From positions 1,824,001 to 1,888,000 of the forward strand of contig OZ244720.1 in NCBI GenBank assembly GCA_965219085.1: a stretch of DNA of 64,000 bases. The letters are read 5' to 3'. The notes under the pieces are model-generated. The model saw nothing but the letters and a program-made list of their open reading frames with translations, was not told the origin of the DNA and did not search any database. The position numbers and the translations under genes were made by a program. Positions within the stretch are counted from its first letter, which is position 1. Each line of letters begins with the position of its first letter. This stretch comes from Dehalococcoidia bacterium (GTDB lineage: Bacteria; Chloroflexota; Dehalococcoidia; UBA2979). Shown piece after piece: positions 24,488-32,030 of this stretch.

Positions 24488-26396
24488 CTAGCTGTTGTGA
24501 ATGCAGCCGACCTCGCGGTCGCTCGCCGCCTCGGTCATGGCGACGAGCTCATCGCGATGCTGCCCGTCGCCGGTCCACGCCGGGGCGAACCCCTCCGCCA
24601 CCATCACGGCGTCGATGGAGACTCCCTCCAGCGTGTAGACGTAGCGCAGCGTGCGGCCGTGCTTGTCCGCCTCCCGCGGGCCAGGCTCGACCAGGACCGC
24701 CTCACCGACGAGCTCGCGCAGCCGGTTGGTGGCCTCCATGTAGCAGGCTTCGCCGCGCTCACGTGTGTCGATACCGTAGAAGCGGATGCGGCGACCGTCG
24801 GCGATGTCGAAGGTGTCGCCGTCAACGACCGCGACGACCTCGACGCGTTCGGTTGGCTCCCGTGGCGTGACGGCCGAGACGTCGGCCAGTCGCGTTGTCG
24901 CTGTGACCCGACCCCTTGAAACGGGACCACCGTTGATGAGAGTCCTCTGGCCCATGAAAGTGGGTGGAGGAGGACATCACGGTGAAACGACGCAGGCACA
25001 CGCCCGAGCAGATCGTGCGGAAGCTGCGGGAGGTGGAGCGGCTGCTCGGTGAGGGGCAGACGATCGCCGAGGCGGCGAAGCAGGTCGAGATCTCGGAGCA
25101 GACCTACCACCGCTGGCGCAACCAGTACGGCGGGATGAAGGCCGACGACGCCAAACGGCTGCGCGAGCTGGAGCGCGAGAACGCCCGGCTGAAGCGGATC
25201 GTCGCCGACAAGGAACTCGAGATCGACGCGCTCAAGGAGATCGCCCGGGGAAACTGGTAAGCCCGTCGCGCCGGCGCGAGGCAGTCTGCATGTTGCAGGA
25301 CCGCCTCGAGTTGTCGGAACGGCGGGCATGCCGGGTCACCGGCCAGCACCGCTCCACACAGCGCCGCCTCCCGACGCGCGGCCGCGGCGACGACGCGCTG
25401 CGCGCGGAACTCCACGCCTTCTCGCGTGGCCACCCCCGCTGGGGGTACCGCCGGGTCTGGGCGACCTTACGCGAGGAGGGCTGGGGCGTGAATCGCAAGC
25501 GGGTGCAACGGCTCTGGCGTGAGGAAGGGCTGCGCGTCCCGGTGAAACGGCGCAAGCGTCAGCGCCTGGGGGACTCGGCGGTGCCCGCCGCCAGGCTGCG
25601 CGCTGAGCGGCCGAACCACGTCTGGGCGCTGGACTTCCTGTTCGACCAGACCGCGGACGGGCGGGTCCTGAAGCTGCTCAACATCGTCGACGAGCACACA
25701 CGGGAGGCGCTGGCGATCGTGGCCGCAGGAGCATCAACGCCGACGCCACGGCCTCAACGCTCGAGGGGATCGTCGCCCGGCGCGGGACGGCGCCTGGGTA
25801 CATCCGCTGCGACAACGGTCCAGAGCTCACGGCCAACGCGCTGCGCGACTGGTGCCGGTTCTCCGGCACGGGCAGCAGCTACATCGAGCCCGGTGCGCCG
25901 TGGGAGAACCCGTACGTGGAGTCGTTCAACGGCCGGCTGCGCGACGAGTTCCTGGCCGTCGAGCAGTTCGACAGCCTGCTCGAGGCGCAGGTGCTGCTTG
26001 AGGACTGGCGGATCGAGTACAACACGAAGCGCCCGCATAGCAGCCTGGGCTGGCTCGCCCCGGCTGCCTACGCCGAGCGCTGGGAGGCTCAGCAGCACGC
26101 TGGACTCTCATAAGCGGTGGTCTCGCGAAGGGGGTCCGGTCAGCTGCACCGGCGCCCTCGGGGGTGGCGTTCTGCGCGTCGCCGGCCATGTCCAGCAACG
26201 TCTCGCCCCCGGAGTACATGAGCATGGTGAAGAAGCTCCCCACCACAATGCCGACCAGCGCCCGGATGATGAACCGTATGAGCTGTGTGTCTTTCTGGTG
26301 CTGAGCACCGAAAACGCCGGCAGCGCCGGCGTGAGTGAGTTGGTTGCCGATACCGAGGCCCCTATTGGGCGGCGACGACGCGCCCGCGACGAGCAC
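24488..26396 (-). pseudogene. Membrane-anchored thermonuclease interrupted by IS3
   Basis: VVDGDT, IRFYGIDTRE, DKHGRTLRYV; removing IS3 and one GCTG restores in-frame PEGAGAATTRLAD with an N-terminal TM helix. Confidence 0.8.
24904..26142 (+). mobile_element. IS3-family element (orfA 24982-25260, orfB with extra frameshift near 25730)
   Basis: TG...CA ends with IRs TGACCCGACCCCTT / TGACCGGACCCCCTT, 4-bp TSD GCTG, GGGAAAC slippage site, WALDF and ESFNGRLRDE motifs. Confidence 0.95.
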
Positions 26397-26510
26397 AGCA
26401 AGAAGCCCTCCTGTTGAAGGAGGGCGTCTGCTGTGCCGAGTGCGCTTGCGAGGCAGCGCCGCCTGTTCACGGCAGTCCAGGGTCGCCGGAATTACGACGC
26501 CCCGGCGAGT

Positions 26511-27214: not shown

Positions 27215-27542
27215 TCGCCGAGTAGGCCCGGTCAGCCGCTAGATGTACTGACCACACAGGTGTGAGACACGGCCGACGGGCGGGAGGCCGCCGAGCGAGC
27301 CGTGGGGACGGTGCCTGTTGTACCACCTGAGCCACCCTGCGAGGGCTCTCGCGCGGTTCGCACTGGACGGGTAGGCGAAGGCGTATGCCCAGCTCCGCAG
27401 CAGCATCTGGATGAAGCGCTCCGCCTTGCCGTTGGTGCGCGGCGTGTAGGGCCGCGTCCGCAGGTGGCGCAGCCCCAGCTCGTCGCAGCGAGCCCGCCAG
27501 GCGTGCGATGCGTACGCGGGCCCGTTGAGTTCCTAACGGATG

Positions 27543-28943
27543 TCAAGCTCCGGCGAGGGGTTGTAGCGTAGGCAGCGGACGGGCCGGCGCCGGAGCGCTC
27601 TGCGACTCCTGACCGCGGCGGCCCGTCCCCTTGCGCGAGCCCGCGCGGGGGCCGAGTCGCTGGCGGCGCACCTCGGCTGGGACGCTGTAGCGCTCGGCGA
27701 CGATGCTCCGCCCCTCGGCCACGGAGACGGGCTGGCCGTCGCAGTCGCGGATGACGTAGCGCTCGCCGCGCCGCCAGCAGGCGACGACGCGCGTGAGCAG
27801 CGTGGTGGCGATATGGCAGAGCGCCGAGTTGTGGTGCTTGCCGGCGGCGACCATGAGCCGCTGGTAACGGGCGGCGAGCGTGGGGTCGATGCGCCGCGCA
27901 TGGTCGGCGGCGATGAAGATCGCCTCGCGCAGGGCGGCGTCGCCGCGGCGGGTCGGACGGCCGTGGCGGCCGCTCACGCCGGAGGCGTTGAGCGAGGGCA
28001 CGAGCCCGCTGAAGGAGCGCACCCCGGCGAGGGAGCGGAAGCGGTTGGGATCGCCGAGGCGGGCGAGGATCTGGGGACCGGTGACGGGACCGATGCCCGG
28101 CGCCGAGGTGAGGATCGCCTCGGGGTCGGCCTCCTCGAAGAGGAGCGCGATGCGCTCGTCGAGCGCGGCGACCTCGTCTGTGAGGATGAGGGCGAGCCTG
28201 GCCTCGACGGCGATGTCCTCGGCGAGCTGGTCGAAGTCGAAGGCGTCCTCCCAGAGCGCGAGCGTCTCCTCCGCGGCGTCCAGCAGCGCCGCAGCGTGCT
28301 CCGGGCCCCAATGGCCGCGCGAGTGGCGATACAGGAAGCGCCCGAGGCGCGCCCGGCCGAGCCGTTCCACCGTGTCGGGACAGGCGTAGCCGGCTGCAAG
28401 GAACCGCAGCGGGGTCTTGTTGGCGAGGTCGGCGCGGAAGGCCTCCAGCCACTTCGGCCCGAGCAGCTCCAGCAGCGCGTCGAGCCGCGCCAGCGACTTC
28501 GTGCGCCGCTGCACCAGGCTCTGACGCAGCCGCGTCGCGCGCCGCAGCGGGTCGCCCGGCCCGAGGCCGTGCTCGTCGTGCAGCCCCTCGGGGTGCAGCA
28601 GCGGGAGCCGCGCCAGCAGACGCGAGTCGAGCCGGTCGCTCTTGGTGTGCTTATGGTAGTAGTCGCGCAGGTCCGCCGAGCGCTCCGGCGGCACCAGCAC
28701 GACGCGTGCGCCGCGACGGCGGAACCAGGCGGCGAGCGCCACCCAGGCGTTGCGCGTGGGCTCCAGGATCACCAGCACCTCGGTGTCTGTTCCTCGCTCG
28801 GGCAGCATCGCCCACAGCCGCTCGAGGTCTTCGGCCCCGGTGCGGAAGCGGTGTCCGCTCCAGAGGAAGCGCCCGCTCTCGTCGGCGAGGCTCGCCTGGT
28901 GGGCGGCCCGGGACGCGACGTCGATTCCCAACCACAGCTGCAT
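27543..28943 (-). CDS. IS110 DEDD recombinase
   Basis: LGIDVAS, LEPT, KSDRLD, PGIGPV, SGLVPSLNASG. Confidence 0.95.
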   Translation of the reverse strand: MQLWLGIDVASRAAHQASLADESGRFLWSGHRFRTGAEDLERLWAMLPERGTDTEVLVILEPTRNAWVALAAWFRRRGARVVLVPPERSADLRDYYHKHTKSDRLDSRLLARLPLLHPEGLHDEHGLGPGDPLRRATRLRQSLVQRRTKSLARLDALLELLGPKWLEAFRADLANKTPLRFLAAGYACPDTVERLGRARLGRFLYRHSRGHWGPEHAAALLDAAEETLALWEDAFDFDQLAEDIAVEARLALILTDEVAALDERIALLFEEADPEAILTSAPGIGPVTGPQILARLGDPNRFRSLAGVRSFSGLVPSLNASGVSGRHGRPTRRGDAALREAIFIAADHARRIDPTLAARYQRLMVAAGKHHNSALCHIATTLLTRVVACWRRGERYVIRDCDGQPVSVAEGRSIVAERYSVPAEVRRQRLGPRAGSRKGTGRRGQESQSAPAPARPLPTLQPLAGA

Positions 28944-28959
28944 ACAGTCGCTCCGTTCC

Positions 28960-29215
28960 TGCACCCCCGCGCTCACTCGGTCCGCGCTGGCCACCGGAGA
29001 GGGACGTCGTACCGGACATTCGCTAACAGGGATCCGGGCGCCACCGCCCGGTCACCGGGTTCCCAACAGGACGCTTCGTCCCCGGCGGTGGCCCCGCCCG
29101 CCTCGTGGTCAACAGGCCAGGAGTCGCGTTGCGCTCCGATCGGTCAATCAACGACGGCGGACAGGCGCCGGACCCTCTGATCCTGAGGCCGGCCGGCCGG
29201 TCCGGCCAGCATCCG
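28960..29215 (-). ncRNA. Candidate bridge RNA of IS110 (boundaries approximate)
   Basis: Upstream non-coding end with two hairpin-split loops whose arms match the target and donor junction sequences. Confidence 0.65.
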
Positions 29216-30061
29216 GAGGGCAGATCCAGATTGAATGTCCGTCATCACCGCTTCGACCGTGATGCCCTGTTCAGCGAACCAGTCGAGCGTCCGCTCGAGG
29301 AACGCGAGGGCATCGTGGCGGCGGTCCGTGGGGAGCACCTCGGCGTAGGCCAGCCGCGAGTGGTCGTCGACGGCGACGTGCACGTGCTGCCAGCCCGCGC
29401 GCGGGCTGCGCGTGACCCCGTCGCCCAGGATGCGCTTACCGACGTGCCAGAAGCGCCCCAGCTTCTTGGTGTCTATGTGCAGCAGCTCCCCCGGGCGCTC
29501 GCGCTCGTAGCGCACCACCGGGGGTCGCGGCTCGCGCGGCAGCCGCGCGGCCCAGCCGCCGCAGCACCTTGCCCACGGTCGAGGCGGGGCGGCCGAGCAT
29601 CGCGCCCAGGGTGAGCGGGCCGGCCCCGCTGCGCTCGCGCGCGGCCACGATCTCGGCCTCCTCGGCCGGGGAGAGGCGGCGCGGCTGGTGCTTCGGGGTG
29701 GAGGGACGCTCGCGCAGTCCCGCCCAGCCGCCGGCCCGGTAGCGCGCGAGCCAACGGTAGCCCGTGGCACGGCTCGCGCCGACGCTGGCGGCGGCCTTGG
29801 CGGGGCTCATGCCCGCGAGCATCGCGGAGATGGCGCGGCAGCGCGCCTCGAACGAATAGAGCATCCGCTCGGGCCTGTTGGTGGCATCATGCATCGGGAC
29901 CTCCTTCGGAACCTGGGTCGTGTTCAACCCCAAGTCTCGTCGGAGGCCCCTTTGCGATCAGGTGTCTCGCAGGTGTGTAGTCAGTACAGCTAGAGGCTTC
30001 GTGCCCCCAACGGTAGTACGCGAGTCCCGCGAGGATCGTCACCTTGCCGATAGCGAGGTCT

Positions 30062-30529: not shown

Positions 30530-31172
30530 CGGGACAGTCTCCTAATGGGTCTTCCGGGAGCACTACGCCGCCGACATCGTGTCGTGCGGCAAGACGGACC
30601 CCCTGTGTTGACGGGAGTCCGCGATTGACCTCGAGGGGTGGGGTGTCACCTGTACGCGCGCACGTAGGAAGCACAGCCACACGCAGAGTCCCGGCGCAGG
30701 GCGCAGGAATCCCCGTGGGGCGATCGTCGAGGTGGCGGGTGAGTGACGAGACACCATGCTGCAGCGAGTGCTGCATGGTGAGCCCTGGGCGCGGATCGAG
30801 GTCGGTCCGCGAGCAGGTGTCCGCTTACACAACTCCGCCCACCGAAGAATGGTGGTCAGCGTTGCGCAGGTGGCCGGAGGTCGTCAGCGTGAGGTGCCGG
30901 GATCTCCTGCGCGCTTGGTTGTTCGCGAGTCCGCAAGCGGAGTCGGGAGCATCGTGCGCGAACGATGTCTAAGCAAGCTCATCCGAAGATGTGCGAGCTG
31001 CTGGCTGGATGGTTGTACGAGGCCGGCGGATGAGAGCGAGTGTCCTCGTCTGCTATCTGCCGCAACTGCTTCGTCCAGTCTCGTGTTTTGGATGAATCCT
31101 GGCTCACGAGTGCAGCGCTGTATTGAGGGCGGTAGTGTCCCCGTCCCGCGACCAGCCAGTCAAGGGGGTTAA

Positions 31173-31575
31173 GCGTCCGTGGACAGACTTTCTCTGTCCG
31201 CAGCGTCCGTGGACACTTTTTCCGCCTCGTCCGCAGCGTCCGTGGACACCTGTCCGCCTCGTCCGCAGCGTCCACGAGGCTCAAGCGCTGCCCACGCACA
31301 GGCCCAGGACGAGCGTCCGCAGCGTCCGCGAGGCTCAAGCGCGGCCCCACGGACAGGCCCAGGACGAGCGTCCGCAGCGTCCGCGAGGCTCAAGCGCGGC
31401 CCCACGGACAGGCCCAGGACGAGCGTCCGCAGCGTCCGCGAGGCTCAAGCGCGGCCCCACGGACAGGCCCAGGACGAGCGTCCGCAGCGTCCACGAGGCT
31501 CAAGCGCGGCCCCACGGACAGGCCCAGGACGAGCGTCCGCAGCGTCCACGAGGCTCAAGCGCGGCCCACGGACAG
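31173..31575. repeat. Iteron-like tandem array (about 33-bp units then about six 55-bp units)
   Basis: GAGCG recurs at 31311, 31366, 31421, 31476, 31531; shared core GTCCGCAGCGTCC. Confidence 0.9.
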
Positions 31576-32030
31576 CCCGGAGCAAGGCGCACATGAGTCG
31601 CCAGGGCGCCCTCCGCGCGCCGACAGCGCCGCATGAGGGGGCCATGACCGCCAAAAGTGTCCGTGAGACGTGTCCACGGACAGAATCCATGCACGTTAAC
31701 TATAGATCTCTCTCATTAAGTTTCTTTTCTTGTCTCTCGTCCTCCGCCTCTTCCCGCTCCCCACTCCTCATTCCTCGCTCCTCGCCTCTCGCTTCTCGAC
31801 ACCCCATCCGCATCACCATTCCCCGCCCCATCCTTCCCCGTGCCTTCCACGCTTCTCCACGACCCATCCACTTCCACCCCTCCTGCTCCGTGCCACCTCT
31901 GCTCCTGGCTCATCCACTCTTGCTCCTTCACGCTCCACCCCGGCTCGCCCTGCTCTCCTGGCCCCGGCCACGTCACGGGGATCGCTTCCACCGCGTAGCC
32001 CGGTGCTCCCGTAACCGCGACCGAATCCGT

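What the first reader, a model, noticed from the sequence alone, without database searches (positions are those of the whole stretch)
27528..29237. IS110 whose bridge RNA appears programmed against the catalytic TDN codons of IS481 transposases
Seen on the minus strand: insertion at ATGACGGA-CA-ACGGG (M-T-D-N-G). The non-coding end carries TGACCGA (29146-29140)-hairpin-GTTG (29113-29110), spelling target TGACCGA-CA-AC, and GTTGGGAACC (29067-29058)-hairpin-GAATG (29021-29017), matching the donor junction GTTAGGAACT-CA-TTC. Circularisation would join TTGACA-N17-CAATCT. Known: IS110 bridge RNAs use this two-loop layout and junction promoters. Inference: an RNA-guided hyperparasite aimed at a conserved DDE aspartate codon, which gives abundant neutral landing sites and inactivates competing IS.
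Basis: partly seen in the sequence, partly recalled or inferred. Interest (0 to 1): 0.8.

Follow-up and report, generated by a model that had tools for sequence, protein, structure and literature searches.

The report
IS110 element aimed at IS481 catalytic codons
A small RNA-guided jumping gene (IS110 family) sits exactly at the codons for the catalytic Asp-Asn of another jumping gene's enzyme (IS481 family), and dozens of its relatives sit at the same codons, but this kind of targeting was already shown for ISEc21 against IS3 elements.

Summary
Window 27526-29237 (minus strand) holds one intact 1,710-bp IS110-group element: a 292-nt non-coding left end, a 466-aa DEDD/Ser transposase and a 17-nt right end. 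It splits an IS481-family transposase gene between Asp and Asn of V-M-T-D|N-G.

The left end folds into a two-internal-loop bridge RNA; 20 of 33 pairs show compensatory changes across 26 relatives.

Its target loop (TGACCGA ... GTTG, core CA) spells the T-D-N codons with one mismatch, at the Thr wobble base.

Of 83 related copies, 80 of them from metagenomes retrieved through the transposase gene alone, 64 of 70 left junctions end in [S/T]-D and 74 of 76 right junctions start with N-G. By independent flank cluster that is 47 of 48 and 50 of 52. Nearly all are IS481-family genes, broken at model position 195|196.

Guide letters covary with targets. Two 99.9%-identical elements lie in IS481 genes only 70% alike, so these are independent insertions.

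The concept is not new. Siddiquee et al. [quoted passage not shown] This is a new lineage with a new target family.

The parts
29238..29933 (-). 5' part of the interrupted IS481-family transposase gene. It ends in ...ATG ACG GA (the 7-nt left target TGACGGA is 29244-29238). It carries a frameshift near 29560 between the HTH part and the catalytic part.
   Evidence: NF033577 matches up to model position 195 (2e-22). rve matches weakly.
29236..29237 (-). Left copy of the CA core. C is the third base of the Asp codon and A is the first base of the Asn codon.
   Evidence: The X9 contig skips 1,710 bases with a 2-letter overlap.
28944..29235 (-). Non-coding left end, 292 nt, which encodes the bridge RNA. 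It starts TTCAATCT, which holds the candidate -10 CAATCT at 29233-29228.
29093..29165 (-). Target-binding stem-loop. The basal stem is 29165-29151 paired with 29106-29093 and the apical stem is 29137-29131 paired with 29127-29120. The internal loop holds the left target guide TGACCGA (29146-29140) and the right target guide GTTG (29113-29110).
   Evidence: In helix 1, 11 of 14 pairs are changed on both sides.
29009..29072 (-). Donor-binding stem-loop. The basal stem is 29072-29069 paired with 29013-29009 and the apical stem is 29056-29048 paired with 29037-29029. The internal loop holds the left donor guide GTTGGGAACC (29067-29058) and the right donor guide GAATG (29021-29017).
   Evidence: The left donor guide matches the right end GTTAGGAACT at 8 of 10 bases. 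GAATG is the reverse complement of CA+TTC at the left terminus.
27543..28943 (-). IS110-family DEDD/Ser transposase gene: 466 aa plus the TGA stop (27545-27543), starting M-Q-L-W-L-G-I-D-V.
   Evidence: PF01548 and PF02371. NF033542 scores 166 bits against a cut-off of 140. D8, E61, D103, D106 and S321 are invariant in alignment A1.
27526..27546 (-). Right end. TTGACA (27546-27541) overlaps the stop codon. It is followed by TCCGTTAGGAACT and the right copy of the CA core (27527-27526).
   Evidence: The motif is found in nearly all relatives.
27239..27525 (-). 3' part of the interrupted IS481-family gene, starting AC GGG CCC (N-G-P-A-Y...). The catalytic E of ...N-G-K-A-E-R-F lies 36 residues after the split Asp. 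The stop codon is at 27241-27239.
   Evidence: NF033577 matches from model position 196 (4.2e-31).

Best explanation
This is an intact, single-copy IS110-group insertion sequence. Its left end encodes a bridge (seek) RNA with two internal loops.

The donor loop pairs with the element's own joined ends (...GTTAGGAACT-CA-TTC...). The target loop (TGACCGA on its 5' side, GTTG on its 3' side, with the shared core CA) pairs with the 11-nt string TGACCGA-CA-AC. In GC-rich genomes that string is the commonest way to write (L/M/V)-T-D-N, the motif holding the second catalytic Asp of IS481-family (rve-fold, DD35E) transposases.

The DEDD/Ser recombinase exchanges strands at the CA core. The element therefore lands between Asp and Asn without a target duplication, and it separates the two Asp residues from the Glu of the host transposase.

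Wobble-base mismatches are tolerated: 0-3 of 7 left-guide bases mismatch in 52 of 53 pairs, and 4 in the last pair.

Shown here: the anatomy, the conserved RNA structure, the clade-wide site, guide-target covariation, and independent insertions.

Inferred: that the RNA is made, probably from a TTGACA-N17-cAnnnT promoter formed on the circle, and bound by the recombinase. Also inferred: that residence in IS481 copies is favoured because such sites are numerous, horizontally mobile and harmless to the host.
For: Family and ends.

Structure: RNAalifold found 22 of 46 pairs with compensatory changes. For the four-helix bridge layout, 95.4% of cells are paired against 85.6% in shuffles (0 of 500 shuffles reach it) and 41-48% when slid; 20 of 33 pairs are changed on both sides.

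Site: 64 of 70 left flanks end in [S/T]-D and 74 of 76 right flanks start with N-G. By flank cluster this is 47 of 48 and 50 of 52. Retrieval used only peptides inside the transposase, so the sample was not chosen by target.

Target identity: IS481 model position 195|196 and rve position 73 of 102.

Covariation:
- First base of the right guide against the Asn wobble base: [[40,3],[0,4]], p = 2e-4.
- Left guide positions -9 to -5: 197 of 265 matches against 183.1 in shuffles; 9 of 50,000 shuffles reach it.
- 13 of 29 non-consensus guide letters match their own target, against 5.4 expected.
- Outgroups with guides ...TACGA/TTTG or ...TGTGA/ACTG sit at ...TACGA-CA-AA.. and ...TGTGA-CA-GT...

Independence: the L021 and L022 bodies are 99.94% identical while their flanks are 70.0% and 70.7% identical.

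Empty site: one contig in run X9.

Precedent for the mechanism: passages of PMC11208160 and section 12 of PMC11187229.
Against: There is no RNA evidence. No RNA run was listed, and Rfam holds no matching family.

The window's own guide has one mismatch to its own site.

The broader left-guide test over seven positions was not significant: 223 matches against 213.1, with 1,118 of 20,000 shuffles reaching it. The significant five-position test was chosen after seeing that result.

The -10 candidate matches TATAAT at only 2 of 6 positions.

The guide alone cannot explain the near-exclusive IS481 residence. In the own genome only 5 of 10 perfect 11-nt sites lie in IS481-type genes. All 10 are empty although the element looks intact. 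So activity here is low or absent, and selection after insertion must contribute.

Kin share guides, so the permutation figures overstate independence.
Confidence: 0.88

Rival explanations
1. Filter rather than aim. The 11-nt guide picks any matching site, and the IS481 association arises mostly because insertions in host genes are purged, while those in multi-copy, dispensable and horizontally spreading IS481 copies persist.
For: In the own genome 5 of 10 perfect 11-nt sites lie outside transposase genes. The GG after AAC is nearly invariant at junctions (74 of 76), yet it is not covered by the 4-nt right guide. This points to gene identity rather than pairing as the cause of part of the pattern.
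Against: The guide consensus equals the codon consensus of the motif. Guide variants follow Ser- and Thr-codon variants of IS481 targets, which implies the guides evolve on these targets. This rival complements the main reading rather than replacing it.
Confidence: 0.4
2. Hitch-hiking composite. One ancient insertion into an IS481 element was then copied around by IS481 transposition supplied in trans, so the many occurrences are not separate IS110 events.
For: Interrupted IS481 copies keep their ends and could be moved in trans (inference only). Several loci share both flanks.
Against: There are 57 flank clusters at the 85% level. L021 and L022 have 99.94% identical bodies in flanks only about 70% alike. 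The targets span several IS481 subgroups and two IS3-like genes.
Confidence: 0.05
3. Protein-read site. The recombinase itself recognises the DNA, and the left-end similarities are by-products of donor-end recognition.
For: None specific. Most guide positions are invariant within the clade, so covariation rests on few changes.
Against: The covariation and the outgroup pattern. Experiments on ISEc21 and IS621 show RNA-determined targeting.
Confidence: 0.04

Closest known systems
ISEc21 (IS110 family; Siddiquee et al. 2024, Nat Commun, PMC11187229, section 12 read in full)
   Same: It has an upstream non-coding region that gives a guide RNA with a bottom-strand match 5' of a top-strand match. 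It forms a circle with a junction promoter and makes no target duplication. [quoted passage not shown]
   Different: ISEc21 targets certain IS3-family members (ISCfr6, ISEc92, ISEc93) in enterobacteria. This clade targets mainly IS481-family genes in GC-rich environmental bacteria. I did not test sequence relatedness because I held no ISEc21 sequence. A tblastn search of plasmids at E <= 1e-8 gave no Escherichia record among its ten most frequent genera or its 60 listed rows; 130 records and 15 genera were not shown. The ISEc21 target logo is in a supplement I could not open.
IS621 bridge RNA system (Durrant et al. 2024, PMC11208160, passages read; the companion structure paper was seen only as a search listing)
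   Same: It belongs to the IS110 group, with a long left end and a short right end. Its bridge RNA has a target loop (left and right target guides) and a donor loop, with the core dinucleotide included in every pairing. A sigma-70-type promoter is rebuilt at the RE-LE junction.
   Different: IS621 has core CT and natural targets in REP elements. Here the core is CA and the target is a coding motif. Nothing was tested at the bench here.
IS4321/IS5075 and the attC-targeting IS1111 members (known to me from the reference lists and text of PMC11208160 and PMC11187229)
   Same: These are IS110/IS1111-family elements that live inside other mobile elements: the terminal repeats of Tn21-family transposons and integron attC sites.
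   Different: They belong to the IS1111 group, with the guide region downstream of the transposase gene. Their targets are non-coding recombination or end sequences, not catalytic codons.

Membership tests
IS110 family, IS110 group | [quoted passage not shown] | tested here: met
   4.7e-21 and 1.5e-20. NF033542 scores 166 bits against a cut-off of 140.
IS110 family, IS110 group | Catalytic D-E-D-D and Ser residues present | tested here: met
   D8, E61, D103, D106 and S321 are invariant in A1. Equating them with the catalytic residues of IS621 rests on recall.
IS110 family, IS110 group | Long non-coding left end upstream of the gene and a short right end | tested here: met
   The left end is 292 nt and the right end is 17 nt after the stop codon. 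Relatives measure 1,682-1,750 bp end to end.
IS110 family, IS110 group | No target duplication; a shared 2-nt core at both junctions | tested here: met
   CA is present at both junctions. An empty-site contig skips 1,710 bases with a 2-letter overlap.
Bridge/seek RNA-guided targeting | A conserved RNA structure with two internal loops | tested here: met
   20 of 33 pairs are compensatory and 95.4% of cells are paired.
Bridge/seek RNA-guided targeting | Loop letters match the target and covary with it | tested here: met
   One broader test was not significant.
Bridge/seek RNA-guided targeting | Loop letters match the donor ends | tested here: met
   8 of 10 bases on the left donor side and 5 of 5 on the right in the window. 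Across 26 distinct pairs there are 195 of 260 matches against 188.8 in shuffles; 644 of 20,000 shuffles reach it.
Bridge/seek RNA-guided targeting | The RNA is transcribed and bound by the recombinase | not testable with these tools
   No RNA run was listed.
Bridge/seek RNA-guided targeting | A promoter is rebuilt at the circle junction | tested here: inconclusive
   TTGACA lies 15 nt from the terminus in nearly all right ends. Columns 4 (A) and 8 (T) of the left end are invariant. The -10 is poor, at 2 of 6 matches to TATAAT. No promoter-like site was found in the integrated copy.
ISEc21-like targeting of second-D codons | The insertion lies at the codons around the second D of a DDE transposase | tested here: met
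   T-D|N-G at IS481 model position 195|196 and rve position 73 of 102, with E 36 residues downstream.
ISEc21-like targeting of second-D codons | Common descent with ISEc21 | not tested
   I held no ISEc21 sequence.

The most novel reading that the evidence does not exclude
Aiming a guide RNA at the second-Asp codons of rve-fold transposases may be a recurrent niche that separate IS110 lineages have found: ISEc21 on IS3 in enterobacteria, and this large soil clade on IS481, with occasional IS3-like genes.

Under this reading the guides track the codon usage of the motif, including Ser-codon variants. The elements also gain a second means of spread by riding on dead IS481 copies that intact copies can still move.

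In addition, 9 of 49 flank clusters keep the target's TA at the left junction, while all 54 right junctions keep the donor's CA. That asymmetry would be natural evidence that only the top strand is transferred and the other strand is copied.
Probability: 0.45. Interest if true: 0.6.

Novelty: new member of a known kind. Interest (0 to 1): 0.45.

Why it matters
It shows that the behaviour described for one enterobacterial element, an RNA-guided IS that homes to the catalytic codons of another IS family, is widespread. The metagenome scan found 551 relatives, and the 80 examined all belong to the clade with this guide type.

It also shows that the behaviour reaches a second and very abundant target family, IS481.

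The set of natural guide-target pairs has known mismatches at wobble bases and at the first core base. It is a ready-made data set on mismatch tolerance and on which strand is exchanged, two open points in work on bridge recombinases.

It also bears on how mobile elements restrain one another in GC-rich soil bacteria.

Tried and rejected
Rfam: no bridge-RNA family matched. Two sub-threshold chance hits appeared: mir-4857, and CRISPR-DR29 on the opposite strand of the donor-loop stem.

Single-sequence fold: z = -1.24, which is not informative alone.

Own genome: there is only one copy, so no within-genome site survey was possible.

Class-level DNA search: 2 of 401 genomes matched, counting G000. 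Only 2 candidates per genome were scored.

Viral contigs with the right-end pattern: 0 matches.

Plasmids: the nearest hits are 51-53% identical Rhodococcus elements in other contexts.

Loop-pattern searches: the first pattern (4 genomes) had a gap set too narrow and found nothing, even in L006's genome. The corrected pattern found 0 of 401 Actinomycetes genomes. That pattern recovers only 38 of 75 known loci, so this is weak evidence, and the hosts of the metagenome copies remain unknown.

PDB sequence search with a left flank: only HTH repressors matched and no integrase. The statement that T-D-N-G holds the second catalytic Asp therefore rests on the rve model position, the D-35-E spacing and recall of retroviral integrases.

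Left-guide test over seven positions: not significant.

Closest paralogue of the host IS481 in the genome: about 70% identical, so there is no own-genome empty site.

Sequencing runs: no RNA holder was listed. All laid runs were contigs, so they say nothing on expression or circles.

Structure prediction, complex prediction, the protein-atlas search, the search for homologous proteins and build_rna_model were not used.

Literature searches that found no paper on IS110 elements in IS481 catalytic codons. Supplements were closed. Supplementary Figs 11-12 of PMC11187229 and Supplementary Data 2 of PMC11208160 may already list this target.

Rows left out of the counts: L008-L017 (outgroups with other guides), L018 and L020 (5'-truncated remnants; L018's right junction is also CA|ACGG in an rve-type gene), L019 (a 503-bp contig) and L101-L102.
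Full report
**What is there.** On the minus strand the window holds one 1,710-bp element. An IS481-family transposase gene runs to ...GTG ATG ACG GA-CA. Next come the left end (29235-28944, starting TTCAATCT), a 466-aa ORF (28943-27546, stop at 27545-27543) and a short right end that ends ...GTTAGGAACT-CA. The host gene then resumes with AC GGG CCC GCG.

Read through, the host protein is V-M-T-D|N-G-P-A-Y. The Glu of ...N-G-K-A-E-R-F lies 36 residues after the split Asp, which is the DD35E spacing.

The ORF carries PF01548 and PF02371. It exceeds the cut-off of NF033542, 'IS110 family RNA-guided transposase'. The two host halves match the IS481 model NF033577 up to position 195 and from position 196.

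The host IS481 copy is itself decayed. It has a frameshift near 29560 and no paralogue above about 70% identity in the genome. The element is single-copy in the 3.3-Mb genome.

**The RNA.** I aligned 26 left ends: the window, 22 relatives that share its guide type, and three outgroups. RNAalifold found two stem-loops, and 22 of 46 pairs had compensatory changes.

I then wrote a four-helix layout that leaves both guide-bearing internal loops open. On that layout 95.4% of cells pair, against 85.6% in shuffles (0 of 500 reach it) and 41-48% when the partners are slid. Twenty of 33 pairs change on both sides.

In window coordinates:
- The target loop lies between stems 29165-29151/29106-29093 and 29137-29131/29127-29120. 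It holds TGACCGA and GTTG.
- The donor loop lies between stems 29072-29069/29013-29009 and 29056-29048/29037-29029. It holds GTTGGGAACC and GAATG.

This is the IS110-group bridge RNA layout described for IS621 (passages of PMC11208160). The left guide has the sense of the top strand and the right guide is its complement, and the core is included in each pairing.

**Relatives and their sites.** A scan of species-representative genomes gave 14 loci.
- Two Dehalococcoidia MAG copies (88-90% amino-acid identity) and a truncated Dermatophilaceae copy lie at T-D|N-G of three different rve-type genes.
- Copies at about 60% identity in Actinoplanes and in an Acidimicrobiales MAG carry other guide letters. 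They lie at ...TACGA-CA-A... and ...TGTGA-CA-GT... sites that fit those letters.

A metagenome scan used two peptides from inside the transposase. It found 551 relatives and kept the best 80, at 64-77% identity.

For the 83 loci of this guide type:
- 64 of 70 readable left flanks end in [S/T]-D, and 74 of 76 right flanks begin with N-G.
- Grouped at 85% flank identity, the loci fall into 57 clusters. The counts are then 47 of 48 and 50 of 52.

The exceptions are L036, L066, L081, L093, L098 and L100 on the left, and L035 and L046 on the right. L093, L098 and L100 have a shikimate dehydrogenase gene on the left and the usual IS481 half on the right. That looks like a rearrangement or a half-site event.

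Flanks tested against NCBIfam:
- Left flanks: 10 of 12 are best IS481 and end at position 195.
- Right flanks: 15 of 18 are best IS481 and start at position 196. Two are best IS3 (L029, L096) and one matches no family (L030).

**Guides follow targets.**
- The right guide is GTTG at AAC targets and ATTG at AAT targets: [[40,3],[0,4]] by cluster, Fisher p = 2e-4.
- For the left guide, a test over seven positions was not significant (223 against 213.1; 1,118 of 20,000 shuffles reach it).
- Restricted to the five variable positions of the 7-nt guide, the count is 197 of 265 against 183.1, and 9 of 50,000 shuffles reach it. That restriction was made after the first test.
- Thirteen of 29 non-consensus guide letters match their own target, against 5.4 expected. 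Examples are ..AGCGA guides at AGC/AGT Ser codons and ..CTCCGA guides at TCG Ser codons.
- Mismatches in the 7-nt left guide across the 53 pairs: 0 in 12 pairs, 1 in 20, 2 in 13, 3 in 7 and 4 in 1.
- The donor guide against the right end gave 195 of 260 matches against 188.8, and 644 of 20,000 shuffles reach it.

**Independent events and boundaries.** The L021 and L022 bodies are 99.94% identical, yet their flanks are only 70.0% and 70.7% identical. Both lie at the same codons. This excludes a single composite that merely diverged.

A contig of run X9 joins 27525 to 29236 in an IS481 relative. It skips 1,710 bases with a 2-letter overlap.

**Limits of the 'aim'.** The own genome holds 10 perfect TGACCGA-CA-AC sites. 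Five are in IS481-family genes and five are in unrelated genes, and all are empty.

The element sits at a one-mismatch site in a decayed IS481. So activity in this genome is low, and the near-exclusive IS481 residence seen across metagenomes must owe something to what survives after insertion. The nearly invariant GG after AAC lies outside the 4-nt right guide and points the same way.

**Promoter.** TTGACA overlaps the stop codon and lies 15 nt from the terminus in nearly all right ends. Columns 4 (A) and 8 (T) of the left end are invariant. A circle junction would therefore read TTGACA-N17-cAnnnT.

The -10 is weak, at 2 of 6 matches to TATAAT. The integrated copy has no promoter-like site. 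This part is inferred by analogy with IS621 and ISEc21.

**Prior art.** Siddiquee et al. [quoted passage not shown] They showed that the upstream non-coding RNA is needed and can be reprogrammed.

Six full-text searches found no paper on an IS110 clade in IS481 catalytic codons. Supplements that may list such targets were closed.

**Verdict.** Both extend to a large clade. The kind of system is already known, so this is a new member that targets a different IS family. Its added value is the natural guide-target pairs and the core asymmetry at the junctions.

Noticed in passing
L027, L052, L057, L065, L076, L079, L082, L085, L086, L092 and their clusters (left junctions): Where the target Asp codon is GAT, the left junction keeps TA while the right junction keeps the donor's CA. 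By cluster the left core is CA 39, TA 9 and AA 1, and the right core is CA in 54 of 54. This one-sided pattern fits transfer of the top strand only, with the other strand copied, as proposed in preprint 10.1101/2025.10.25.684509 (passages read).
   Followed up: partly
L093, L098, L100; L066; L072 against L073; L094 against L095; L056 against L069: Identical or nearly identical element bodies have one flank swapped. Examples are a shikimate dehydrogenase gene ending ...M-L-Q-K-D on the left, and a non-transposase sequence on the right. These look like rearrangements between copies or half-matched off-target events.
   Followed up: partly
L018:2186-3199 and L020:1655-2344 (minus strand): Two remnants lack the element's 5' half. 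In each, the 3' half is fused directly to the N-terminal HTH part of an IS481-like gene, and the right junction is intact where readable. The same kind of internal deletion occurs in two phyla.
   Followed up: no
window 29436-29933 against 29237-29770 (minus strand): The host IS481 gene changes frame near 29560, between its HTH part and its catalytic part. It has no close paralogue in the genome, so the landing site is an old, dead IS copy.
   Followed up: partly
window 25021-26417 (plus strand): Another rve-type transposase gene, apparently frameshifted, lies about 1 kb from the interrupted IS481 (ORFs; weak IS481-model matches at genome 1849021-1850068). This stretch looks like a graveyard of insertion sequences.
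   Followed up: no
window about 31120-31700: ORF translations on both strands repeat the same peptide-like unit several times (...RPQRPRGSSAA...RTSVRSV.EAQARPHGQAQDE...). This indicates a tandem DNA repeat of roughly 100 bp.
   Followed up: no
own genome C1:582645, 898429, 417611, 1678349, 3279068: Five IS481-family genes carry a perfect, unoccupied match to the element's 11-nt target: V-M-T-D-N-G-S-E-F twice and V-L-T-D-N-A-K-A-Y three times.
   Followed up: yes
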